DNA from: a virus | IMG/VR virus record: IMGVR_UViG_3300032050_000122 | DNA length: 64,000 nt | Strand: one strand, 5' to 3' | Shown: piece by piece, positions 5,617 to 26,683 of the stretch | Position numbering within the stretch: position 1 is the stretch's first letter | How the letters are laid out: each line of letters starts with the position of its first letter | Notes under the pieces: generated by a model | What the model was told of the DNA's origin: nothing | Databases searched by the model: none | What the model saw: the letters and a program-made list of their open reading frames with translations, nothing else | Position numbers and translations under genes: made by a program

Positions 5617-7053
5617 TTACATATACTCGCGTGCCCGAATGAAGTCGATGATTGCCTCGCTCCATCCACTGATGTGGACGAACTTGTTGTAGCCGATTCC
5701 ATTCTCATTGCAACTGATGTTGATGAGATAGTTGGAATCACCGAAGGCGTTTGCCTGAGACGGATCGAGCTTGCTGCCAGGAGTCTGGCAATCTTGCTCG
5801 TCCGTGATGACGATGACGCGGTCAGCCGTTCGCTGTTCCTGATAGACATAGTCCATGACTTGTTTCAGGAAGATGCCACCAGTACCGATTTGGTGCTGGA
5901 GTTGCAACTCACTGAACAGTCGAGACAACTCGAAACCACGCCGAGCCGGAATCTGCATCGTTGCATGACGCCGTGCCGAATCGCTACCGGCGGTAGCATA
6001 GATGACCGGATTTTCGGCGATCTCTTTGACGAGAATCGCCAACGCACCAGCGGCATCAAGACGCGACAGGTCGCTCTTGGCCGAGACCTTGCCCTGAGTC
6101 ATGGACCCCGAGGAATCCACGATCAGAACCGTCTTGCCGGGGAGCTTCGGAATCGTTTGGAGACAGCGAAGCATCATGTCTTCGATCATGTTCTGCCATG
6201 CCGGAACCGCACGGTAAGCCGCGATGAACCGGAAGGGAAGCACACGACCCAAATCAACATGCTTCGAGTACTCGACGACGAGTTCCTTGGCCACGCCGCT
6301 CTGTTCCATGTTGCGGAGATTCCGCAGGAACGCCAACGCACCGAGCTTGCCCTCTCTCATCAGACGCGTGAACGTCTCGCACTTGTCGGCTCCCGCAGAA
6401 AGCTCAACTTCCCAAGTATCGGGAGTCTTGAGAGTGCCTTCTGCCAACTTGTGGTAGAGGGAATCGGTGTGTCGTAGCAGGGACTTGGAGTGACCGTCTT
6501 TGTAAGTACGGTGCTTGATGGTGGCGGGGCCAACGTCAGCCGGTTTCGGATGACAGAGGAACATGGCGTCCCGGAGTTTGACCGCTCCATCACGATTATA
6601 CTTAGCCAAGGCGTACTCATTGAAGTTCCCGAAGGCTTTCGCCAGTCCTTTCTTGACTTGGGCAGAAATCGGGCACTTGCCATCTTTCCAGTAGATGGCA
6701 AGGAATTCTGCCAACTCGTCAGCACGCTGGATGATTTCCGGGAGCAGGTCTTTCACCAGTCCCTTGTGGCTATCCAGCCGAGCCATTTCACGTGCAATCA
6801 ACAACGGTACGTGCCGCAGTTTCTGATTCGTTCGGGCGTCGATCGCCATGTTCGCGACCTTCTGCGGATCGACCTGTTTGATGAGGCTCGCAATCCGCTT
6901 GGCGATCTTCTCGCCAGTTTCGTAGAACGTGTCTTCCCACAACATGCACGCCATCACGGATCGCCGAAGTTGTTCTTCGGGACTGACGTTGCTGGCGATT
7001 GCTCCGCCGTGGGTACGCTTGACAAGCTTGGGTGCCTTCACATTCGTCTTCAT
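5617..7053 (-). CDS. rsr: Ro60/Rsr ortholog (TROVE domain plus vWA domain)
   Basis: TROVE-like N-terminal region (HGGAIASN..., LRDAMFLCHPKP resembling the Ro60 LRLSHpKP motif) and C-terminal vWA domain with the Ro60-type MIDAS LIVDSSGSM. Start chosen at MKTNVKAP because of the strong RBS (AGGAGAgcatcATG); the ORF track extends to 7170. Confidence 0.75.
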   Translation of the reverse strand: MKTNVKAPKLVKRTHGGAIASNVSPEEQLRRSVMACMLWEDTFYETGEKIAKRIASLIKQVDPQKVANMAIDARTNQKLRHVPLLIAREMARLDSHKGLVKDLLPEIIQRADELAEFLAIYWKDGKCPISAQVKKGLAKAFGNFNEYALAKYNRDGAVKLRDAMFLCHPKPADVGPATIKHRTYKDGHSKSLLRHTDSLYHKLAEGTLKTPDTWEVELSAGADKCETFTRLMREGKLGALAFLRNLRNMEQSGVAKELVVEYSKHVDLGRVLPFRFIAAYRAVPAWQNMIEDMMLRCLQTIPKLPGKTVLIVDSSGSMTQGKVSAKSDLSRLDAAGALAILVKEIAENPVIYATAGSDSARRHATMQIPARRGFELSRLFSELQLQHQIGTGGIFLKQVMDYVYQEQRTADRVIVITDEQDCQTPGSKLDPSQANAFGDSNYLINISCNENGIGYNKFVHISGWSEAIIDFIRAREYM

Positions 7054-7241
7054 GATGCTCTCCTGGGATTGACAAAGCCACAGTTCATTGCGAAGCTCAT
7101 GACTTTTATAGTCCATGCTCCACAATTCCTGACCCATGACACTTATGGGTCTAATCATCGCTGCTTCCATTGTCTTATTCTTGTTTCTGCCGGAGTAATT
7201 GCTACTCGACGGCTACCACCGAATTTCTTTGTTAATTCAAT

Positions 7242-7958: not shown

Positions 7959-7993
7959 AATTTGCGGGAACAAGCGGAACGGCTGCTGCCCTT

Positions 7994-8044
7994 TCGGGCG
8001 ATCAAACCATCTTTGAAGTAACCGTTTCCTAACGCCACGCAAAC
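7994..8044 (-). promoter_or_regulatory. repeat unit copy 1 (box A 8015-8044 plus box-B-like 7994-8006) upstream of tRNA-His
   Basis: Minus strand GCGTGGCGTTaggaaaCGGTTACTTC then GGTTTGATCGCCCGAAAG; member of the repeat family at 8.0-11.6 kb. Confidence 0.5.
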
Positions 8045-8159
8045 ATTAAAGTGGGGAACAATCGCTGTAGTTAGCCGGTATCGAGCCGGCACCCTTGCGG
8101 GTTTCAAACCAAGAAGTAGCTACAACTATCACCACCACAAGAAGCATTAGAGGGATAAT

Positions 8160-8280
8160 AATCGACAACAGGGGTTGGTCTTTTGCTCTACCCACTGAGC
8201 TACAATCCATCCCGAGGGACTTCATGGCGGGATTCGAACCCACGACCTAAAGAAGTAACTGTTATCTACGCCACTCTAAT
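8160..8280 (-). ncRNA. candidate YrlA-like ncRNA: box A, then T-arm, hairpin and D-arm (permuted tRNA-like module), then closing stem and box-B-like
   Basis: Minus strand GAGTGGCGTAGATAACAGTTACTTC (8276-8252); T-arm GUGGG-UUCGAAU-CCCGC (8243-8227); hairpin GUCC-cucg-GGAU; GGAUUGUA plus D-arm GCUC-AGUGGGUA-GAGC (8200-8185); CUGUU (8171-8167) pairs with the AACAG of box A. No anticodon arm and no matching acceptor 3' strand. Confidence 0.45.
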
Positions 8281-8364
8281 AAGGTGCCGACGGCAGGATT
8301 CAAAATGGAGAGCCTGCGAAACAGGATCGTATCACCTGTGGTTAACCGCACAGATTACCACCCC

Positions 8365-8387
8365 GCTAAAGGGTGTGGCCACACCCC
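8365..8387 (-). terminator. possible weak terminator hairpin after the kinase gene
   Basis: Perfect palindrome GGGTGTGGCCACACCC followed by only UUU on the minus strand. Confidence 0.3.
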
Positions 8388-8409
8388 GTCCGCGTTCGTC
8401 GGCCTGATT

Positions 8410-8847
8410 TCATGCTAAGAACACTTCTTGATTCCAATAGGAAGGAACAATTTGTTCTTGAAGGTTCTTATGCATTGCCAAAATTGTGTTGACCGGTACC
8501 TTGTGCGTATTTCTACGCATTGCACGACTAACCGGACACATGTGGTACTTGATCACGTAATCGTGGCCTAATGCTTGAGCGATTCTGACATATGGAGCTA
8601 GTTCCATGAGAGTTGTGTTTGTGTTATCCACAATAAAAAGTGGACAGCGTTTCTCAACGAAGACCGCCGAGATGTAACAACGCAAACACCAATCATGAGC
8701 CTCACCCGCACGCTTAGGGTCGTACTGGTAAATACCATTGACTGTGTGAAAGTCATCAGCCGAGAAGATTTCACAATCTTCACCAGCATAGTTCTTCACA
8801 TAAGTTGATTTACCTGACCCAGGCAATCCTCGCATGATCCAGATCAT
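8410..8847 (-). CDS. P-loop kinase (polynucleotide kinase-like, AAA_33 type)
   Basis: 145 aa starting MIWIMRGLPGSGKSTYVKNY (Walker A) and resembling the T4 Pnk kinase domain N-terminus; RBS AAGGAAAG precedes the ATG. Confidence 0.65.
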   Translation of the reverse strand: MIWIMRGLPGSGKSTYVKNYAGEDCEIFSADDFHTVNGIYQYDPKRAGEAHDWCLRCYISAVFVEKRCPLFIVDNTNTTLMELAPYVRIAQALGHDYVIKYHMCPVSRAMRRNTHKVPVNTILAMHKNLQEQIVPSYWNQEVFLA

Positions 8848-8934
8848 GGTCTTTCCTTAAAAAGTTAATTGGTCCAGAGCCTTCACGGTAACACACCGTG
8901 GCCTGCCCAGCTTAAGCACTCTGGACCAAAAGGT

Positions 8935-9000
8935 ATCGGGGATTAAATCGGTCACAGCTTTTTCTAAGCATGAAGTAACCGTGACCAACGCCACCGAAAG
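8935..9000 (-). promoter_or_regulatory. repeat unit copy 3 (box B 8935-8948, hairpin, box A 8972-9000) upstream of the kinase gene
   Basis: Minus strand CTTTCGGTGGCGTTGGTCACGGTTACTTC ... GCTGTGACCG ATTTAATCCCCGAT; the GGTCAC/GTGACC stem covaries with other copies. Confidence 0.55.
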
Positions 9001-9004
9001 TTTG

Positions 9005-9265
9005 TTACTTGGGCTTCCACTCTTCGGGAATCTTTTCCTTGTCGTTGAAGATGTTGCCCATTCGAATCTTCCAGTCTTCACCTTCGGGAAGACCAGCATG
9101 GCGATACATGGTATCACCCACCATACGCCAAACTCCTGCCTGGGATTCCGGCGGCACGTAAGCCGCTCGTTGCATGATTTGTTTCAAGTCGTTGGCCAAC
9201 GCGACTTCCGTCGGCGGCAGAACTTCTTGAATGACAAACTTCACCAATCGATCAAGGTCTCGCAT
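9005..9265 (-). CDS. hypothetical protein
   Basis: 86 aa; RBS AAGGAAAAG upstream of ATG at 9265. Confidence 0.5.
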   Translation of the reverse strand: MRDLDRLVKFVIQEVLPPTEVALANDLKQIMQRAAYVPPESQAGVWRMVGDTMYRHAGLPEGEDWKIRMGNIFNDKEKIPEEWKPK

Positions 9266-9284
9266 GATTCTTTTCCTTAATAAG

Positions 9285-9402
9285 AGCGGGGATTAAACGA
9301 AATCAGTATTTAGTCCCACACTTGCGGGTTTACGGCCCGTAGTTGTGGGGCTTCTCCGGTCATGGTGGGGAAGTAACTGATCTCAAACGCCACCGCAAAA
9401 AG
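9285..9402 (-). promoter_or_regulatory. repeat unit copy 4 (box A 9370-9402, long structured loop, box B 9285-9298)
   Basis: Minus strand GCGGTGGCGTTTGAGATCAGTTACTTC ... ACTGAT ... GTTTAATCCCCGCTC; ATCAGT/ACTGAT stem. Confidence 0.5.
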
Positions 9403-9403
9403 A

Positions 9404-9682
9404 TCACTTCGTGGGAATCGGCTCAAGCGGACTCGTCGCCAAATGAATGGCAACGTGGTGAATCTTGTTGGTTTCTTTGTCAATGACCCACGACTCCTGC
9501 TCCTGGTAGAACCGATTCAGTTCGAAGATCGCTTCGATCGATTCGAGCCACCACCAAGAGGTTTCGCCTTCGTCGGCAACACCGATCAACCAGCGTGCAT
9601 CGGCGGGCTTACGCCCCACGAATCCTGACACGCGGGAAATTCCTTTGTAAACGACGTTGTCGTATTTCGTTTGCATGTTCAT
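9404..9682 (-). CDS. hypothetical protein
   Basis: Start moved to MNMQTKYD (ATG at 9682) because the longer ORF would run through the upstream repeat unit; RBS AAGGAAatgaacATG. Confidence 0.5.
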   Translation of the reverse strand: MNMQTKYDNVVYKGISRVSGFVGRKPADARWLIGVADEGETSWWWLESIEAIFELNRFYQEQESWVIDKETNKIHHVAIHLATSPLEPIPTK

Positions 9683-9697
9683 TTCCTTAAAAGAAGT

Positions 9698-9763
9698 ATC
9701 GGGGATTAAACGCTTAGGGTTGGCACTTTTAACAGAAGTATCCCTTAGCATACGCCACCGATG
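9698..9763 (-). promoter_or_regulatory. repeat unit copy 5 (box A 9735-9763, hairpin GCTAAGGG/CCCTAAGC, box B 9698-9711)
   Basis: Minus strand CATCGGTGGCGTATGCTAAGGGATACTTC tgttaaaagtgccaa CCCTAAGC GTTTAATCCCCGAT, then RBS and ATG. Confidence 0.55.
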
Positions 9764-9912
9764 ATTGTGAGCCTGGACTGCCATTCATTTATTTAACGCC
9801 CCGGTCCTGGCACCTGGTGCGTCTAACTCTGACGTTCCCATGTAACGCCACGCGAGTGTTGGGTTTTGCTAACCATAAGTGACCACACCAACAGGCCACC
9901 CTTCGATTCCTC

Positions 9913-10161
9913 CTAGAGTTGACCAGCGAGGTACAACAAAGCCGCCTTGAACGCCGCTCGATTGCTGCCGGGCGTCTTGGGAATTTCGTCCATCTTGTTT
10001 GTCATCTCTTTGTAGAGACGGGTCTGTTCGACATCCATCTCTTCGTGAGTCGCGTTCGGTTTCGATTCATACAACTGAAAGAACGTGACGATGGCACTGA
10101 GCGTTTTCAACTGCTGAGCCATCTCTAGGGACAGCGTCAGAATCAAAAGTTCCTTGAGCAT
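9913..10161 (-). CDS. hypothetical protein
   Basis: 82 aa; RBS AAGGAAAtgtctcATG. Confidence 0.5.
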   Translation of the reverse strand: MLKELLILTLSLEMAQQLKTLSAIVTFFQLYESKPNATHEEMDVEQTRLYKEMTNKMDEIPKTPGSNRAAFKAALLYLAGQL

Positions 10162-10188
10162 GAGACATTTCCTTTCGAGAAAGAATGG

Positions 10189-10347
10189 TTAAGGTTCAAC
10201 TGATGCGATGACCCATGACGATAGGACATCAAGGATTCTGTCGGCTTCGTCTTCCGACGTTTCTTGTCCAACGGTTTCCCATTCACCGTGAACAAAGACT
10301 TCAATATGCCAGTTGCCAGAATCGTCGTCCAATCGTTTTCGAATCAT
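10189..10347 (-). CDS. hypothetical small protein
   Basis: Start at MIRKRLDD (GGAG RBS) rather than 10401, which would overlap the upstream repeat unit; 52 aa. Confidence 0.4.
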   Translation of the reverse strand: MIRKRLDDDSGNWHIEVFVHGEWETVGQETSEDEADRILDVLSSWVIASVEP

Positions 10348-10423
10348 CTTGAAACTCCAAAACAGGGGCAAGTAACTAGCGTCAGAACCCCGATGACCCA
10401 ATTACCTACCCCTGTGATTCAAA

Positions 10424-10492
10424 ATCGGGGATTGTTCGCTACGGCTTTTCGTGCAAAGGTAGAAGTAACCGTAGCAATCGCCACCGAAAAAG
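10424..10492 (-). promoter_or_regulatory. repeat unit copy 6 (box A 10462-10492, hairpin GCTACGG/CCGTAGC, box B 10424-10437)
   Basis: Minus strand CTTTTTCGGTGGCGATTGCTACGGTTACTTC ... CCGTAGC GAACAATCCCCGAT. Confidence 0.55.
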
Positions 10493-10628
10493 CATGTACT
10501 CACGTTATCTGTTATTCTCTTCGACCTTCGGCATCATGCGTACTTTCCGAGTCAGACCACGCCGTGAGTACAACCCCATCCTCAAAAGGCAGGGGCGGGC
10601 CAGATGGGGACGGAACCCTTCTCCAGCA

Positions 10629-10838
10629 TCAGGCCGACTTTGCAGTCAGCTTATCCATGTACTTGGCCTTGTTCACGACGCCCCGACGAATCGAAGCGAG
10701 AACTTGGTTGGCACGTTTGACATGCCGTTCCGTGTACGTCTTACCGGCGAACTTCTCGGCGATGACACCTGCATCAAGCAGGGCACCGTCTTTGTCTCGA
10801 CCGAACTTGCTGACATTGGCTTTCGTGATGTTAATCAT
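10629..10838 (-). CDS. hypothetical protein
   Basis: Likely starts at MINITKANV (69 aa). The longer 10629..11003 frame overlaps a better-supported gene in another frame. Confidence 0.35.
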   Translation of the reverse strand: MINITKANVSKFGRDKDGALLDAGVIAEKFAGKTYTERHVKRANQVLASIRRGVVNKAKYMDKLTAKSA

Positions 10839-10872
10839 GGTTAGTGATTCCAATGAGTGTTGGGAAACGGGT

Positions 10873-11124
10873 TTAGGACGCCAGAAGATACACGCCGCGA
10901 GGCTTGTCGAAGACGATGGTCGCGATGACCACTGACTCCTCAACCTCGATGCCTTCGTCATTTTTGACCATTCGATTTTCCTTGACAACCTGTTGGTCGC
11001 CAAAGGCTTTCTTCACATTGGCCCGTCGTTCCGTGACGGCCCGACCGCGACCCGGCCAGATTCCACGAAGGGTAGCTTGACCGTGCTTGCGGCACTTGTC
11101 GATCAGAACTTGCACTTCATTCAT
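10873..11124 (-). CDS. hypothetical protein
   Basis: 83 aa; strong RBS AAGGAAAGtttcATG. Confidence 0.5.
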   Translation of the reverse strand: MNEVQVLIDKCRKHGQATLRGIWPGRGRAVTERRANVKKAFGDQQVVKENRMVKNDEGIEVEESVVIATIVFDKPRGVYLLAS

Positions 11125-11153
11125 GAAACTTTCCTTAAGTAAAGGGACCAGTG

Positions 11154-11221
11154 GGGGCCCGAGGATTTGAACCTCATCTCTGAGTTAAACTCAGGCTCTG
11201 CCAAGTTAAGCTAAAGCCCCA
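11154..11221 (-). tRNA. tRNA with atypical anticodon arm (possible anticodon UUA; or a 5-nt loop)
   Basis: D-arm GCUU-AACUUGGC-AGAGC and T-arm UGAGG-UUCAAAU-CCUCG. Anticodon arm CUGA-GUUUAAC-UCAG gives UUA with a 4-bp stem; the alternative is a 5-bp stem with loop UUUAA. Acceptor has a mismatch and GU pairs. Confidence 0.45.
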
Positions 11222-11224
11222 AAT

Positions 11225-11293
11225 CGGGGAACAAACGATTACGGGGTCACATCAACCAAAAGAAGTACCCGCAATCAAACGCCACCGAAAGCA
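11225..11293 (-). promoter_or_regulatory. repeat unit copy 7 (box A 11264-11293, hairpin GATTGCGGG/CCCCGTAATC, box B 11225-11238) upstream of the UUA tRNA
   Basis: Minus strand CTTTCGGTGGCGTTTGATTGCGGGTACTTC ... CCCCGTAATC GTTTGTTCCCCGAT. Confidence 0.5.
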
Positions 11294-11366
11294 CGACCGG
11301 GTGGAATCGAACCACCAACCTACGGTTTTGGAGACCGTCGCTCTGCCAATTGAGCTACTAGCCGCG
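11294..11366 (-). tRNA. tRNA-Trp (anticodon CCA), acceptor stem does not pair as read
   Basis: D-arm GCUC-AAUUGGCA-GAGC, anticodon arm ACGGU-CUCCAAA-ACCGU, T-arm GGUGG-UUCGAUU-CCACC. The 5' CGGCUAG and 3' CGGUCGU are not complementary, so this may be a pseudo-tRNA or I have misread the boundaries. Confidence 0.5.
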
Positions 11367-11374
11367 TTGTGTCC

Positions 11375-11492
11375 GGGATTAAGTCGAATCAGTATAGCAT
11401 CCTACCATTAGACGACGAAGGCAAGCCCTCGGTGGGATTCGAACCCACATCTCTTCTTTGACATAGAAGTAACCGATTCTAAACGCCACGGA
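11375..11492 (-). ncRNA. candidate YrlA-like ncRNA: box A, then T-arm, closed acceptor-like hairpin and D-arm, then stem and box B
   Basis: Minus strand CCGTGGCGTTTAGAATCGGTTACTTC (11492-11468); T-arm GUGGG-UUCGAAU-CCCAC (11450-11434); hairpin CGAGG-gcuugc-CUUCG; UC; D-arm GUCU-AAUGGU-AGGA (11415-11402); GAUUC pairs with the GAAUC of box A; TTAATCCCGG (11386-11375). Confidence 0.45.
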
Positions 11493-11567
11493 ACTAAGAA
11501 CCAGGGATTAACTGAGTCGGTGCCGCTGTTGCCAAATCTTGCGGCCTCAACACCCTTGCGGATGCTG

Positions 11568-11637
11568 ACAGGATTCGAACCTGCAATTACTTATGAAGTA
11601 TCCGATTCAATCGCCACTGGTAAGTTGTCAGACGATC
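11568..11637 (-). ncRNA. tRNA-like element: acceptor-like stem, box A in place of the D and anticodon arms, and a T-arm
   Basis: Minus strand CUGACAAcuuacCAGUGGCGAUUGAAUCGGAUACUUCauaaguaauuGCAGG-UUCGAAU-CCUGUCAG; box-B-like TTAATCCCTGG at 11514-11503. Confidence 0.35.
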
Positions 11638-12845: not shown

Positions 12846-12950
12846 TTAACGTCCTTTGATGTTCATGATCAAGACTACGACGCCAACAATCAGGAACGAC
12901 ACGCCCAAGATTATGGCAACAGGCAAACTCATGGTCGGGTTGAGCATCAT
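12846..12950 (-). CDS. possible 34-aa single-TM miniprotein
   Basis: Not on the ORF track (under 60 aa). MMLNPTMSLPVAIILGVSFLIVGVVVLIMNIKGR with GGAG RBS 7 nt upstream, immediately downstream of the tRNA-like element. Confidence 0.3.
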   Translation of the reverse strand: MMLNPTMSLPVAIILGVSFLIVGVVVLIMNIKGR

Positions 12951-12966
12951 AACAAATCTCCAAGTT

Positions 12967-13032
12967 GCGGGGGTGGGCTTCGAACCCACAAACAGGTAGC
13001 TAGCCTTCGCTTTGCCAGTTAGCGTACCCCGC
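12967..13032 (-). ncRNA. tRNA-like element lacking an anticodon arm
   Basis: Acceptor GCGGGG/CCCCGC, 3-bp D-arm CGC-UAACUGGCAAA-GCG, T-arm GUGGG-UUCGAAG-CCCAC, but only AAGGCUAGCUACCUGUUU where the anticodon arm belongs; about 66 nt. Confidence 0.4.
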
Positions 13033-20101: not shown

Positions 20102-20365
20102 TCACTTCTTGATCAGAGCCAGGATGGCATTGATCACGGTTTGCAAATCCAACTTCTGGCCAGAGAACAGACTGAGAACAAGCGGCAAGAGAACCGCCAA
20201 AATCGTCACCAATCCGACGCCCTGAGCTTGTGCCTGCTTGACGGCTTCACTGAGCTTTGTCTCGGCGTCGCGACCGTACTGGTACGCAACGCTCTTCAAA
20301 AGCATTCGCAGCGTTCCCTGTTGATTTGCACCGACGACACCTGCAAGGTGTTGAGCTTCGATCAT
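20102..20365 (-). CDS. small membrane protein
   Basis: 87 aa with a hydrophobic segment (VGLVTILAVLLPLVLSLF). Confidence 0.4.
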   Translation of the reverse strand: MIEAQHLAGVVGANQQGTLRMLLKSVAYQYGRDAETKLSEAVKQAQAQGVGLVTILAVLLPLVLSLFSGQKLDLQTVINAILALIKK

Positions 20366-21525
20366 TTATCCTTCTCCAAGTAAGTTGCTCCGACACACTT
20401 GAGACACAAGCGTCCCAAGTGAATGTCAGTGCGTTCAACAATCGGTTTGACCACGCAGCCCTCACGATAGTGCTGTGCAATCAAAGATTGACCGTCGCTC
20501 AAGTTCACAACCAGATCGAAGCTGTAATCGTGAACGCCAAGGAATGGCACCCACGGTACATCCGGTGCCGCGTCGCGAGCTTCTTGAGCATTCAGCCAGC
20601 GGCCGTCGTCAAGAATGTCGAACACAGCAATCGAGACTGGCTTGTCTTGAGTGTGGCCGTACTTCAAGGTCTGCACGTTGCCGTAGACTTCACCGTACAA
20701 AATCTTTCCCGGATTATCACGGCACCACTTCTCAATTTCCGGTTCATGGCTCAACGCCGTCCACCACATGTTCCGCGACTTTGTCGGAGAATGTAGGCGA
20801 TCGAAAATCTGTTGACAGCGTTCTTCATCAGGGATGTTTGTGTCCTTGTTCAGAACACGTTCCCGCAACCAATTCATTGTGATATGGTCATAGGTCGGGA
20901 ACTCTTTCTTCCACTCGGTCCGAGAACCACAGTGCATCACACCGTCTTGATAGACGTACCGTGCGTTAGCTCCGTGAATCTTCTCGGTGATCCAAACCTT
21001 CTCGCCAGGAATCAACAAGTGATGATACTTGCGGAAGGCATCGAGATCGTACTTCGGACTGTTGAGGCTTGGAGCCTTGGCAACTTCACCGCCAAGAATC
21101 AAGCCGTTTGCTGCTCGCTGCTCACCTGGCATCGGCGGTTCGTAGTGAGTGACGCCCAACTGCTGAGCAACGTCTTGACCCAAGACGCTACCTTCCGGTG
21201 CCGGAATCATCAGACCAAACGAAACAACACCACGCAGCTTCATAGCCTTGACGCGGTGTGTACCATCAGCCTTGGCTTTTGGCATGAGGAAGTCGAACTC
21301 TTTCCGGTTTGTGTCCACCACCGAATCAGGCGGAAGATACGCACCAAGAGCGACACCTTGCCAGTCTTGGGTTCGGACGATACAGGTGTATCCGCCGAAG
21401 ACTCGAACGATACTGAGCGAATCAGCGTTTGGGTGCTTGGTCAATTCGATTGGCACAATCTCCACCTGATGTGTGCTATTTGACATGGTGCTTACCTCGT
21501 TTGTTGAGTTCCCTGATTTCATCAT
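20362..21525 (-). CDS. ATP-dependent RNA ligase (Rnl2/Rnl5-DraRnl type, KxHG)
   Basis: 387 aa; nucleotidyltransferase motif I ITEKIHGANARYVY (KIHG as in T4 Rnl2) preceded by an N-terminal OB-like domain. Confidence 0.65.
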   Translation of the reverse strand: MMKSGNSTNEVSTMSNSTHQVEIVPIELTKHPNADSLSIVRVFGGYTCIVRTQDWQGVALGAYLPPDSVVDTNRKEFDFLMPKAKADGTHRVKAMKLRGVVSFGLMIPAPEGSVLGQDVAQQLGVTHYEPPMPGEQRAANGLILGGEVAKAPSLNSPKYDLDAFRKYHHLLIPGEKVWITEKIHGANARYVYQDGVMHCGSRTEWKKEFPTYDHITMNWLRERVLNKDTNIPDEERCQQIFDRLHSPTKSRNMWWTALSHEPEIEKWCRDNPGKILYGEVYGNVQTLKYGHTQDKPVSIAVFDILDDGRWLNAQEARDAAPDVPWVPFLGVHDYSFDLVVNLSDGQSLIAQHYREGCVVKPIVERTDIHLGRLCLKCVGATYLEKDK

Positions 21526-26379: not shown

Positions 26380-26683
26380 TTACTTGGTTCGCCTTCACAA
26401 GAGCGAGAAGAGTAATCGCCTGGTCGATCTTGTTGTCATCTGCACCAGACAGAAGCTCATGAATCAATTCGTTGGTTCGACGCAGCTTGTACGTCATGTC
26501 CGATTCGACAACGATCTTGAACCACACACTGTCGTGGTGTTTGTCGATCGAATCAGTCAGCGACTTCTTGATCGCCTTGATCCCGATTTTTCTTTTTGCG
26601 GCCATAGCTGCGAATCTCCTTGTACTTGGTGCGAAGGCGTTTGAGTGCTTCTTTGAGTAGTAGTTGTTCACGAAGGTCTTCAT
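26372..26683 (-). CDS. hypothetical protein
   Basis: 103 aa ORF. Confidence 0.35.
   Translation of the reverse strand: MKTFVNNYYSKKHSNAFAPSTRRFAAMAAKRKIGIKAIKKSLTDSIDKHHDSVWFKIVVESDMTYKLRRTNELIHELLSGADDNKIDQAITLLALVKANQVSE

What the first reader, a model, noticed from the sequence alone, without database searches (positions are those of the whole stretch)
11370..11500. Second, cleaner permuted tRNA-like unit (box A, T-arm, closed acceptor hairpin, UC, D-arm, stem, box B) inside the minus-strand tRNA cluster
Minus strand 11492 to 11375 reads: CCGUGGCGUUUAGAAUCGGUUACUUC (box A), a 17-nt spacer, T-arm GUGGG-UUCGAAU-CCCAC, hairpin CGAGG-gcuugc-CUUCG with a U-G pair standing in for a closed acceptor stem, then UC (like positions 8-9), D-arm GUCU-AAUGGU-AGGA (tRNA-Glu-like), then GAUUC pairing with the GAAUC of box A, then TTAATCCCGG (box B). 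This has the same topology as the 8.2-kb unit: a tRNA-like module placed in the loop of a stem formed by the flanks. It sits immediately upstream of tRNA-Trp.
Basis: seen in the sequence. Interest (0 to 1): 0.8.

Follow-up and report, generated by a model that had tools for sequence, protein, structure and literature searches.

The report
Phage Y RNA that mimics tRNA
The "permuted tRNA-like unit" is real, but it is a known kind of small RNA: a YrlA-type Y RNA, the tRNA-mimicking partner of the Ro60 protein, and one of ten such RNA genes lined up upstream of this phage's own Ro60 gene.

Summary
A stem formed by the two ends encloses a T arm, a closed acceptor-like hairpin, UC and a D arm. This is the published architecture of YrlA-class Y RNAs, which bind Ro60 and are described as resembling circularly permuted tRNAs.

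- Ro60/TROVE gene at 5617-7053, same strand.
- Ten units share the end module between 7962 and 11621.
- A covariance model built only from other phages scores the finding as the window's best hit (71.6 bits, E=3e-15).
- The end stems, T arm and D arm covary strongly. The 93%-identical-Ro60 relative L003 keeps the unit, with compensatory changes in the acceptor hairpin.
- At least one unit in 44 of 45 Ro60-selected viral loci. In an RNA-first search, 17 of 17 model-positive loci had an adjacent TROVE gene and 0 of 63 model-negative loci did.

Caveats: no expression or binding data, the exact CGAA motif is replaced by CGUU, and the Rfam score is below threshold, as it is for other phage YrlAs.

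Verdict: a new member of a known kind. The large, diversified array is moderately interesting.

The parts
11371..11493 (-). The finding: full Y RNA unit U2 (YrlA type, about 123 nt)
   Evidence: R2 model built from other phages only: 71.6 bits, E=3e-15, full length. The MFE fold equals the model structure.
11480..11492 (-). 5' strand of the Ro60-binding module: P1 UCCG, bulged U, GG, then CGUUUA (position of the published GNCGAA/CGAA motif)
   Evidence: P1 and GG:CC covary or are invariant across 26 and 15 sequences. Motif statistics.
11472..11479 (-). P2 5' strand, GAAUCGGU (the analogue of the anticodon stem in YrlA)
   Evidence: All 8 P2 pairs show double-sided changes in A3, and 7 of 8 in A5.
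11453..11472 (-). UUAC (the published YUAY) plus the V / anticodon-arm-like hairpin CUUCU-AUGUCAA-AGAAG
   Evidence: Hairpin covariation on 36 units: 81% paired versus at most 43% when slid. Loop signature C32 U33 NNN A37 A38. Rfam tRNA aligns it as an anticodon arm.
11432..11448 (-). T arm, GUGGG-UUCGAAU-CCCAC, preceded by AGAU (11449-11452; U48 pairs with A15)
   Evidence: Levitt pair A15:U48 here versus G15:C48 in most relatives.
11416..11431 (-). Closed acceptor-like hairpin, CGAGGG-CUUG-CCUUCG
   Evidence: Compensatory changes in the L003 orthologue (CGAGUCC-UUCG-GGGCUUG).
11399..11415 (-). UC (positions 8-9) plus the D arm GUCU-AAUGGUA-GGAU (tRNA-Glu/Asp-like)
   Evidence: The same D-arm type appears in L001, L002 and L032 homologues.
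11372..11393 (-). P2 3' strand ACUGAUUC, 3' internal loop GACUUAAU, CC, and P1 3' strand CGGA (box B)
11500..11621 (-). Unit U1: tRNA-like module with a degenerate D arm
   Evidence: R2 46.8 bits, E=2.6e-9.
11223..11289 (-). Unit U3 (short, hairpin module)
   Evidence: R1 60.8 bits; R2 38.6 bits.
10424..10488 (-). Unit U4 (short)
   Evidence: R1 49.7 bits.
9698..9762 (-). Unit U5 (short; hairpin loop CUGUUAA)
   Evidence: R1 53.2 bits.
9285..9397 (-). Unit U6 (long; module of two hairpins, not tRNA-like)
   Evidence: R2 32.3 bits, E=7e-6; fold.
8935..8998 (-). Unit U7 (short)
   Evidence: R1 60.1 bits.
8148..8278 (-).
   Evidence: R2 70.9 bits; Rfam YrlA 36 bits, E=3.9e-5.
8050..8139 (-). Unit U9
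   Evidence: R1 42.9 bits.
7962..8042 (-). Unit U10
   Evidence: R1 45.9 bits.
5617..7053 (-). Phage Ro60 (TROVE + vWA) gene. The likely true start is the ATG at 7053.
   Evidence: Pfam TROVE E=5.7e-14. PHROG 850 RNA-binding protein, E=1e-38. PDB 9KOP/9L5Y, phiRo60, E=1.5e-26 over the full length.
8410..8847 (-). Polynucleotide-kinase-like P-loop protein inside the array
   Evidence: Pfam AAA_33 E=6.7e-12. PHROG 2071 ATPase and PHROG 505 polynucleotide kinase.
11291..11365 (-). tRNA-Trp, immediately 3' of the finding (probably co-transcribed)
20362..21525 (-). RNA ligase (context: RNA-repair toolkit)
   Evidence: Pfam RNA_ligase E=3.8e-18.

Best explanation
The unit is a gene for a YrlA-class Y RNA, a small non-coding RNA partner of the phage's own Ro60 protein.

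Shown here:
- Its 5' and 3' ends pair. The end module is a 4-bp stem of free sequence, a bulged U, invariant GG:CC, an internal loop carrying YG-WW on the 5' side and UU(A/G)(A/U)U on the 3' side, and then a second variable stem.
- This end module is shared by ten units in the window.
- The same module is found next to Ro60 genes in dozens of unrelated phages.
- The enclosed module is a tRNA mimic containing UUAC, an anticodon-arm-like V hairpin, a T arm, a closed acceptor-like stem and a D arm. The nucleotides needed for the tRNA elbow and the Levitt pair are in place.

Inferred from published work on Salmonella, Deinococcus and Thermus phage phiLo:
- Ro60 binds the bulged end module.
- The variable module acts as a gate or tether that brings Ro60 together with another factor. 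Host PNPase is the documented case. For the tRNA-like module, tRNA-recognising enzymes are candidates.
- This would redirect RNA surveillance, decay or repair during infection.

Inferred from context: the ten units are probably made from one long transcript together with the interspersed tRNAs and small ORFs, and released by tRNA- and mRNA-processing nucleases. The neighbouring PNK-like kinase and RNA ligase suggest a link to repair of damaged (t)RNA.
For: - Anatomy confirmed.
- Adjacent Ro60/TROVE gene on the same strand.
- End-module covariation on 26 units from 20 loci: 92.9% paired versus at most 53% when slid, 12 of 14 pairs with double-sided changes, 0 of 500 shuffles.
- Full-length structure on 15 units from other phages: 98.1% paired, 17 of 24 pairs with double-sided changes.
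- The model built from those 15 scores the finding 71.6 bits, E=3e-15. It recovers all ten units and nothing else in 64 kb.
- Orthologue in L003 with compensatory acceptor-stem changes.
- Homologue in Xanthomonas/Xylella phages, about 330 nt upstream of their TROVE gene.
- 109 hits in Ro60-selected loci, all on the Ro60 strand, at a median of about 190 nt upstream. 44 of 45 loci are positive when both models are combined.
- RNA-first test: 17 of 17 model-positive loci versus 0 of 63 model-negative loci have an adjacent TROVE gene.
- Statistically significant though sub-threshold Rfam YrlA matches on sister units (E down to 1e-10).
- The published YrlA features match: near Ro60 on the same strand, a GNCG... 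motif, YUAY, V, T, AS, D, and Levitt-pair covariation (PMC4201824).
- YrlA is described as resembling a circularly permuted tRNA with a closed acceptor stem (bioRxiv 10.1101/312249).
- The closest solved Ro60 homologue binds upstream-encoded Y-like RNAs and host PNPase (PMC12135203).
Against: - There is no expression, end-mapping or binding evidence for this RNA.
- The exact CGAA of the published Ro60-contact motif is absent from all ten window units. The finding has CGUU. CGAA occurs in only 14 of 138 family members. In phiLo Yrl2, single U substitutions in CGAA weakened binding 3-4 fold.
- The Rfam YrlA score on the finding is only 22.6 bits, a local match, against a curated cut-off of 69. 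Phage YrlA-like RNAs from actinophages and CcrColossus are also sub-threshold, at 30-44 bits.
- Fold stability is unremarkable (z = -1.13).
- The unit lies 4.3 kb from Ro60 with ORFs in between. The family median is about 190 nt.
- The effector of the tRNA-like module is unknown even in the model organisms.
Confidence: 0.87

Rival explanations
1. It is a true circularly permuted tRNA gene, as in Cyanidioschyzon merolae or Thermofilum. The transcript would be circularised and reopened at the acceptor end to yield a functional tRNA-Asp (anticodon GUC).
For: The order T arm, acceptor, D arm is that of a permuted tRNA. A 5-bp hairpin with a canonical 7-nt loop (A-U-GUC-A-A) is present. M. smegmatis YrlA can be cut by RNase P and receive CCA (PMC4201824). 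The L003 orthologue has a 7-bp acceptor stem.
Against: - The acceptor stem is capped by a bare tetraloop (CUUG; UUCG in L003), with no discriminator, CCA, leader or trailer.
- The ends form the conserved Ro60-type module shared with seven units that have no tRNA-like content, not a bulge-helix-bulge splice motif.
- The break lies between the D arm and the anticodon-like hairpin, so ligating the ends would insert about 40 nt there.
- The family is strictly linked to Ro60 genes.
- ARAGORN finds no tRNA here, and the Rfam tRNA score of 25.4 is below the cut-off of 29.
Confidence: 0.03
2. It is a rearranged tRNA pseudogene, or a fossil of a tandem tRNA pair, with no function of its own.
For: It sits in a tRNA gene cluster. 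The sequence reads like tRNA pieces. tRNA finders partly call sister units (Rfam tRNA 33-41 bits on L002, L022 and L034). The literature proposes a dimeric-tRNA origin for YrlA.
Against: - It is conserved in L003 with compensatory changes.
- There are homologues in distant phages with Ro60 only 44% identical.
- All helices covary strongly.
- Tertiary-pair nucleotides are invariant, and the 15:48 pair covaries.
- Linkage to Ro60 is strict.
Confidence: 0.02
3. The shared end module is primarily a cis-acting element of the polycistronic mRNA: a processing, stability or Ro60-docking site between genes. It would not be the closing stem of free-standing small RNAs, and the tRNA-like insert would serve as an RNase P/Z entry point.
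For: - In this window the units sit in intergenic gaps. They start a few nt after stop codons and end just before UAAGGAAA-type ribosome-binding sites.
- There is no excess of promoters or terminators.
- A remnant of the boxes lies in the Ro60 5' UTR in both the window and L003.
Against: - In most other phages the units are packed head to tail with no ORFs between them, directly upstream of Ro60.
- Homologous RNAs in Salmonella and M. smegmatis are stable, Ro60-bound small RNAs (PMC4201824).
- phiLo Yrl RNAs bind Ro60 as isolated RNAs of about 60 nt.
- This rival is not exclusive of the main explanation.
Confidence: 0.08

Closest known systems
YrlA (Y RNA-like A; Rfam RF02553; Chen et al. 2014, PMC4201824; crystal structure 6CU1, bioRxiv 10.1101/312249)
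   Same: - Encoded on the same strand as a Ro60/TROVE gene.
- The ends pair into a stem-bulge-stem module with a G-N-C-G motif near the 5' end.
- A conserved YUAY (here UUAC).
- An optional V stem-loop, a T arm, a closed acceptor-like stem (6 bp, as in Salmonella) and a D arm.
- The elbow and Levitt-pair nucleotides.
- The Rfam consensus also carries GGCGAA, CUAC and UUGUcGCC at the corresponding places (alignments).
   Different: - The motif reads CGUU, not CGAA.
- Both strands of the end module are conserved (U-GG...UUAAUCC). In Salmonella and M. smegmatis only the 5' strand was reported to be recognisable.
[quoted passage not shown] - It is one of ten paralogous units.
Yrl1/Yrl2 of Thermus phage phiLo with phiRo60 (PMC12135203; PDB 9KOP, 9L5Y)
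   Same: - Phage-encoded Ro60 homologue (E=1.5e-26 to the window protein).
- Y-like RNAs encoded just upstream.
- Stem-bulge-stem with the motif at about nt 10-13.
- Yrl2 is about 60 nt, the size of the short units here.
- It gives experimental precedent for Ro60 binding and recruitment of host PNPase.
   Different: phiLo has two units and no reported tRNA-like module. Its motif is an exact CGAA. I could not obtain the phiLo sequences to test them with my models.
YrlB of Salmonella, and metazoan Y RNAs / C. elegans stem-bulge RNAs
   Same: Short Y RNAs carry the Ro60-binding stem and only a small variable loop, like the seven short units of this array. Multi-copy Y RNA families with different loops exist, such as the 4 human Y RNAs and the many nematode sbRNAs (my own knowledge).
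   Different: There is no sequence similarity beyond the short motif. The units here are tandem in one phage operon.
Circularly permuted tRNA genes (Soma et al. 2007; Chan et al. 2011)
   Same: The 3' half (T arm) precedes the 5' half (D arm), and the acceptor stem is initially closed.
   Different: Those are matured into functional tRNAs through a bulge-helix-bulge splice and RNase P/Z. Here the acceptor is capped by a tetraloop and the ends form a Ro60-type module.

Membership tests
YrlA-class Y RNA (Chen et al. 2014; Rfam RF02553) | Encoded near a Ro60/TROVE gene, on the same strand (published criterion: within about 4 kb) | tested here: met
   Ro60 is at 5617-7053 on the minus strand. The finding is 4.3 kb upstream, as part of a continuous array whose nearest unit is 0.9 kb away. 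Family-wide linkage is shown.
YrlA-class Y RNA (Chen et al. 2014; Rfam RF02553) | 5' and 3' ends pair to form a stem-bulge-stem (Ro60-binding) module enclosing the effector module | tested here: met
   Covariation of P1, GG:CC and P2. The MFE fold agrees.
YrlA-class Y RNA (Chen et al. 2014; Rfam RF02553) | Conserved 5' motif GNCGAA(N0-1)G, the presumed Ro60 contact | tested here: inconclusive
   The finding reads GGCGUUUAG, so GNCG is present but AA is replaced by UU. Across the family the counts are YGUA 61, YGAA 32 (exact CGAA 14), YGUU 21 and YGAU 14 of 138.
YrlA-class Y RNA (Chen et al. 2014; Rfam RF02553) | tRNA-like domain in the order (V) - T arm - closed acceptor-like stem - D arm, with conserved YUAY before V and tRNA tertiary-pair nucleotides, including covarying 15:48 | tested here: met
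   - Sequence.
- UUAC is the commonest form, with UUACUUC in 82 units.
- T and D arm covariation; V hairpin covariation.
- A15:U48 here versus G15:C48 in 21 relatives.
- G18, G19, U54, U55, C56, A58, U8 and A14 are all present.
YrlA-class Y RNA (Chen et al. 2014; Rfam RF02553) | Score at or above Rfam's curated gathering threshold (69 bits) | tested here: not met
   22.6 bits, a local match, on the finding. The best sister unit scores 55.9. No unit in 15 loci passes. Units next to Ro genes of CcrColossus, Gordonia, Streptomyces and Rhizobium phages also score only 30-44 bits. The threshold therefore excludes every phage Ro-locus RNA I scored, not this one specifically.
YrlA-class Y RNA (Chen et al. 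2014; Rfam RF02553) | Accumulates as a stable small RNA, is bound by Ro60, and carries tRNA-type modifications (pseudouridine 55, dihydrouridine) | not testable with these tools
   Needs RNA-seq or Northern blotting, RIP or EMSA, and modification mapping.
Circularly permuted tRNA gene (matured to a functional tRNA) | Acceptor end that can be opened to give a 5' end, discriminator and CCA; termini that form a splice (bulge-helix-bulge) motif | tested here: not met
   The acceptor is closed by a 4-nt loop (CUUG; UUCG in L003). The termini form the Ro60-type module shared with non-tRNA-like units.
Canonical tRNA gene | Cloverleaf detected by tRNA finders at threshold | tested here: not met
   ARAGORN gives no call. 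Rfam tRNA scores 25.4 bits against a cut-off of 29, and covers only box A through the T arm.
tmRNA, including two-piece permuted tmRNA | tRNA-Ala-like domain with an open acceptor, plus a tag reading frame and pseudoknots | tested here: not met
   ARAGORN finds no tmRNA in the window. Rfam tmRNA hits are 18-nt T-arm fragments only.

The most novel reading that the evidence does not exclude
The array is a diversified adapter library. One phage Ro60 would be served by ten Y RNAs whose variable modules differ:
- three tRNA mimics of different type;
- among them this one, with a Glu/Asp-type body and an anticodon-arm mimic reading GUC;
- seven small-hairpin modules.

Each RNA would either direct Ro60 to a different host factor or RNA target, or act as a decoy or sensor for host tRNA-targeting defence nucleases. 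It would work together with the PNK-like kinase embedded in the array and the nearby RNA ligase.

My evidence does not exclude this. The covarying V hairpin has a canonical anticodon-loop signature. The Glu-type subfamily keeps NUC 'anticodons' in three distant phage lineages.
Probability: 0.15. Interest if true: 0.7.

Novelty: new member of a known kind. Interest (0 to 1): 0.36.

Why it matters
The finding adds an unannotated Y RNA, and nine siblings, to a class whose function is still poorly understood.

- **Annotation.** Phage Ro60 loci routinely carry these RNAs, yet standard annotation misses or mislabels them. The Rfam threshold excludes them. Sister units are annotated as tRNA-Thr in Xanthomonas phage 10KY502B and as tRNA-Gln in CcrColossus. 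In Gordonia phage Trax, small CDSs overlap one.
- **Test system.** Arrays of 8-11 units, here and in L003, L004 and CcrColossus, offer a natural system for asking what the variable module of a Y RNA does. The same protein-binding stem presents many different modules in one genome.
- **Origin.** Units that retain an anticodon-arm-like hairpin are consistent with the idea that YrlA arose from tRNA genes.

Tried and rejected
- **Rfam at curated thresholds.** It finds only tRNAs in the window. With E-value thresholds YrlA appears on the 8.2-kb unit, but not on the finding unless the finding is searched alone.
- **First pattern finder.** It was noisy and missed units. I replaced it with covariance models.
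- **Model R1 (short units).** It matches the long units only in part, because the insert is penalised. Model R2 solved this.
- **Thermodynamic support.** The z-score of the finding is not significant, so I did not use stability as evidence.
- **Promoter and terminator scan.** No excess, so there is no support for independent transcription units.
- **MFE folding of the short V segment.** Unreliable. I replaced it with an anchored extraction and a pair count. I allowed a 4- or 5-nt spacer and kept the better-pairing choice, which is a mild bias.
- **First motif count.** It was corrupted by the GG of P1 and was redone.
- **Recent copy of the lineage's tRNA-Asp.** I tested whether the finding is a recent copy. 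The real tRNA-Asp of L004 has a different D arm, so I make no such claim.
- **Literature and sequence gaps.** The supplements of the two key papers and the 2020 review were not available. I could not locate the phiLo genome. I therefore could not test Yrl1/Yrl2, or check whether multi-copy phage arrays were already tabulated.
- **Mini-module in the Ro60 5' UTR.** Not supported by folding.
- **Considered and rejected.** Functional permuted tRNA, tRNA pseudogene, tmRNA, and ribozyme-flanked element (no Rfam ribozyme hit).
Full report
**1. The observation.**
On the minus strand, 11493 to 11371 reads: UUCCGUGGCGUUUAGAAUCGGUUACUUCUAUGUCAAAGAAGAGAUGUGGGUUCGAAUCCCACCGAGGGCUUGCCUUCGUCGUCUAAUGGUAGGAUGCUAUACUGAUUCGACUUAAUCCCGGAC. 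tRNA-Trp follows 5 nt downstream. The minimum-free-energy fold gives exactly the proposed architecture. Its stability is not exceptional (z = -1.13), so thermodynamics is not the evidence. The box-A pattern TGGCG-N6-16-TACTTC occurs nine times, all on the minus strand between 8015 and 11616, against 0.18 expected.

**2. What surrounds it.**
Reading 6.8-13.3 kb on the minus strand and folding the candidates shows ten units with one common frame:
- a 4-bp closing stem whose sequence differs from unit to unit but stays complementary (UCGG/CCGA, CCAG/CUGG, UCCG/CGGA, UGCG/CGCA, AGAG/CUCU);
- a bulged U, then GG paired to CC;
- an internal loop (CG-U/A-U on the 5' side, UU(U)AAU or UUGUU on the 3' side);
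- a second stem of 7-10 bp of free sequence;
- the conserved UUACUUC;
- a variable module.

The others are one or two small hairpins.

Downstream on the same strand lies a Ro60 orthologue, 5617-7053:
- Pfam TROVE, E=5.7e-14, with a weak Ro60-vWA match;
- PHROG 850 'RNA-binding protein', E=1e-38;
- a full-length match to the solved phiRo60 of Thermus phage phiLo, 9KOP/9L5Y, E=1.5e-26.

A polynucleotide-kinase-like P-loop protein sits inside the array (8410-8847). An RNA ligase lies at 20362-21525. tRNA-Trp and tRNA-His are interspersed. Promoter- and terminator-like sites are not enriched. The units start a few nt after stop codons and end just before UAAGGAAA-type ribosome-binding sites. I therefore infer one long transcript that is processed.

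**3. Is the shared frame a real RNA structure?**
I aligned 26 short units from 20 different viral loci. The frame (14 pairs) is 92.9% paired, against at most 53% when the 3' partner is slid. Twelve of 14 pairs show double-sided changes, and no shuffle in 500 reaches the covariation score. Only the GG:CC pairs never vary.

Next I aligned 15 long tRNA-like units taken only from other phages, excluding the window and its near-identical relative. Twenty-four pairs (frame, T arm, closing pair of the acceptor hairpin, D arm) are 98.1% paired against at most 51% when slid, and 17 pairs show double-sided changes.

The covariance model built from these 15 (R2) was then run on the window:
- the finding is the best hit, at 71.6 bits, E=3e-15, full length;
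- the 8.2-kb unit scores 70.9 and U1 scores 46.8;
- the seven other units score 31-39;
- nothing else in 64 kb is significant.

The short-unit model R1, run with filters off, likewise finds no unit outside 7961-11621.

**4. Conservation of the finding itself.**
- The closest relative is L003, an IMG/VR contig of 112 kb with Ro60 93% identical. It has the unit at the same place, upstream of tRNA-Trp. The unit is identical except in the closed acceptor hairpin, where CGAGGG-CUUG-CCUUCG becomes CGAGUCC-UUCG-GGGCUUG. That is three changed pairs, all still paired, plus one added pair.
- blastn found the T-acceptor-D part at about 80% identity in Xanthomonas/Xylella phages, in unannotated DNA about 330 nt upstream of their TROVE gene. 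Those phages carry five units with the same boxes. One unit is a clear homologue of the finding: it has the same Glu-type D arm, and its loop reads AUCUCAA where the window has AUGUCAA.
- The 15:48 Levitt pair is A:U in the finding and G:C in its Xanthomonas-phage homologue and in 21 of the long units examined. This is the same covariation that Chen et al. reported for YrlA.

**5. Linkage to Ro60.**
In 45 loci chosen because they encode a Ro60 relative:
- R1 finds 109 units at E<=1e-3, all on the Ro60 strand;
- 102 are upstream, at a median of about 190 nt, and 7 are downstream;
- with R2 added, 44 of 45 loci have at least one unit, and the exception is a contig that begins at the Ro60 gene.

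To remove the selection bias I also searched the viral collection by RNA motif alone. Of 80 loci returned, R2 recognises units in 17. tblastn finds a TROVE gene directly adjacent in 17 of those 17, and in 0 of the other 63.

The same RNAs lie at the Ro genes of cultured phages:
- CcrColossus, eight contiguous units upstream;
- Brevundimonas phage Kabachok, four upstream;
- crAss-like cr106_1, two downstream;
- Gordonia phage Trax, Streptomyces phage Kradal and Rhizobium phage TM30, upstream.

**6. What it is.**
These properties are the published definition of YrlA-type Y RNAs. Chen et al. 2014 (PMC4201824) found them on the same strand and within about 4 kb of Ro60 in 254 bacteria and 22 phages. 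They described:
- a 5' motif GNCGAA(N0-1)G as the likely Ro60 contact;
- a conserved YUAY that begins a 'V' loop;
- an optional V stem-loop upstream of a T arm;
- a closed 'AS' stem and a D arm;
- covariation of 15:48.

In the finding, UUAC is the YUAY. Box A and box B are the Ro60-binding module plus the analogue of the anticodon stem. The Rfam YrlA consensus printed also carries GGCGAA, CUAC and UUGUcGCC at the corresponding positions.

Rfam's model gives statistically significant but sub-threshold matches to sister units (E from 1e-10 to 4e-5) and a local 22.6-bit match to the finding. Every phage Ro-locus RNA I tested scores below the curated 69 bits, including those of actinophages and CcrColossus at 30-44 bits. 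I therefore read the failure as a property of the threshold.

**7. How it most likely works.**
Shown: a conserved, covarying stem-bulge-stem encloses a tRNA mimic and is obligately linked to a phage Ro60 gene.

Inferred from established work:
- Ro60 binds the bulged stem through the 5' strand motif.
- In phiLo, the closest solved homologue, phiRo60 binds two upstream-encoded Y-like RNAs with nanomolar affinity. Mutating the CGAA motif weakens binding 3-4 fold. The complex engages host PNPase (PMC12135203).
- In Deinococcus and Salmonella the Y RNA tethers Ro60 to PNPase. The tRNA-like module of YrlA is recognised by TruB, DusA and, in M. smegmatis, RNase P (PMC4201824).

I therefore expect the finding to be a Ro60-bound small RNA whose tRNA-like module recruits or gates a tRNA-recognising partner. 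It would be part of a phage toolkit (Ro60, PNK-like kinase, RNA ligase, own tRNAs) for controlling RNA decay or repair during infection. The partner and the physiological role are not known.

**8. Departures from the textbook case.**
- *Motif.* After the bulged U-GG the family reads YG-WW: YGUA 61, YGAA 32, YGUU 21 and YGAU 14 of 138. Exact CGAA is found in only 14 units and in none of the window's ten.
- *Conservation of the 3' strand.* Both strands of the end module are conserved.
- *The V hairpin.* I extracted it by a fixed anchor from 36 distinct long units. The 5-bp/7-nt-loop hairpin is 81% paired against at most 43% when slid, and 0 of 500 shuffles reach its covariation score. Its loop reads C32 (19 of 25), U33 (22 of 25), NNN, A37 (21 of 25), A38 (23 of 25). 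It is followed by an AGGUC-type 4-5-nt linker and then the T arm, exactly as positions 27-48 of a class I tRNA. It is therefore an anticodon-arm mimic. Published Salmonella YrlA 'lacks the anticodon loop', and the fourth stem-loop was interpreted as a variable arm. I could not see the published figures, so I cannot say whether this was noted before.
- *The loop triplets.* Most end in U36. The Glu-type subfamily (window/L003, Xanthomonas phages, L032) keeps NUC. I read this as descent from two kinds of tRNA with constraint on the loop frame, not as proof of isoacceptor-specific function.
- *Array size.* The mode is 2-3 units per locus, often one short next to one long, as with yrlB-yrlA. The window has 10, L003 has 11, L004 has 9 and CcrColossus has 8. 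I found no paper in the held library that describes such phage arrays. The relevant supplements were not available.
- *Interleaving.* In the window the units alternate with small ORFs instead of being packed head to tail.

**9. Rivals.**
- *A functional permuted tRNA gene.* This is unlikely. The acceptor is capped by a tetraloop, the ends form the Ro60-type module shared with non-tRNA-like units, and tRNA finders do not call it.
- *A pseudogene.* Conservation, compensatory changes and the Ro60 linkage contradict this.
- *A cis-acting role of the end module within the polycistronic mRNA.* This cannot be excluded for this window and is compatible with the main explanation. Elsewhere, however, the units are tightly packed without ORFs, and related RNAs are free small RNAs.

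**10. Verdict.**
The object is a new, unannotated member of a known class (YrlA-type Y RNA) in a phage Ro60 locus. The interest lies less in the unit than in the expanded, diversified array, the anticodon-arm mimic, and the systematic mis-annotation or non-annotation of these RNAs in public phage genomes.

Noticed in passing
window 7060-7085 (minus), just upstream of the likely Ro60 start (ATG at 7053); L003 7983-7997: A remnant of the boxes lies in the Ro60 5' UTR. It reads CUGUGGCUUUGUCAAUCCCAGGAG in the window and GUGGUUAAUCCC in L003, and it overlaps or abuts the ribosome-binding site. It could be a scar of a lost unit or a Ro60 autoregulatory site. Folding does not support a stable hairpin (z = +1.4).
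   Followed up: partly
window 11153-11220 (minus): A tRNA-like gene with a normal acceptor stem, D arm and T arm but only a 5-nt 'anticodon' loop (CUGAG-UUUAA-CUCAG). Rfam tRNA scores 34.7 bits and ARAGORN is silent. It is absent from the corresponding position in L003.
   Followed up: partly
window about 12935-13020 (minus): Another tRNA-like sequence with an acceptor stem, D arm and T arm (GUGGGUUCGAAGCCCAC) but no clean anticodon arm. Rfam YrlA gives a weak 18-bit hit. Not detected by ARAGORN.
   Followed up: no
window 8285-8405 and 8862-8932 (minus): Two further strongly structured intergenic segments lacking the Y RNA boxes. The first is a 121-nt three-hairpin structure closed by a 7-bp stem (-52.9 kcal/mol, z = -3.45). 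The second is a 71-nt long hairpin (z = -3.45). Their function is unknown.
   Followed up: partly
L002 2706-2773 (Xanthomonas phage 10KY502B); L166 2715-2782 (CcrColossus); L170 2357-2639 (Gordonia phage Trax): Public annotations mislabel Y RNA units. 'tRNA-Thr' and 'tRNA-Gln' each cover the 5' half of a unit (box A through the T arm). Two tiny 'hypothetical protein' CDSs, gp92 and gp93, overlap the Trax unit.
   Followed up: yes
L034 2064-2193: One unit encloses a tRNA-like body in normal order (D arm, anticodon arm, AGGUC, T arm) without an acceptor stem, inside the usual end module. Rfam tRNA scores 41.3 bits over model positions 6-65. Its orientation is opposite to YrlA and recalls what was described for Deinococcus Yrn1.
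   Followed up: partly
L166 2305-3496 (Caulobacter phage CcrColossus): Eight contiguous Y RNA units fill the 1.2 kb upstream of the Ro60 gene of a cultivable phage. This is a practical system for testing what multi-unit arrays do.
   Followed up: partly
window 26530-26589 (plus): A weak, isolated match to the short-unit model (17.4 bits, E=0.015), far from the array and on the other strand. Probably chance.
   Followed up: no
window 8850-11145 (minus), before each small ORF: The small ORFs between units are each preceded by a UAAGGAAA-like motif 5-8 nt before the ATG. This is presumably the ribosome-binding site of this phage-host pair. None of these ORFs matches a PHROG family.
   Followed up: no
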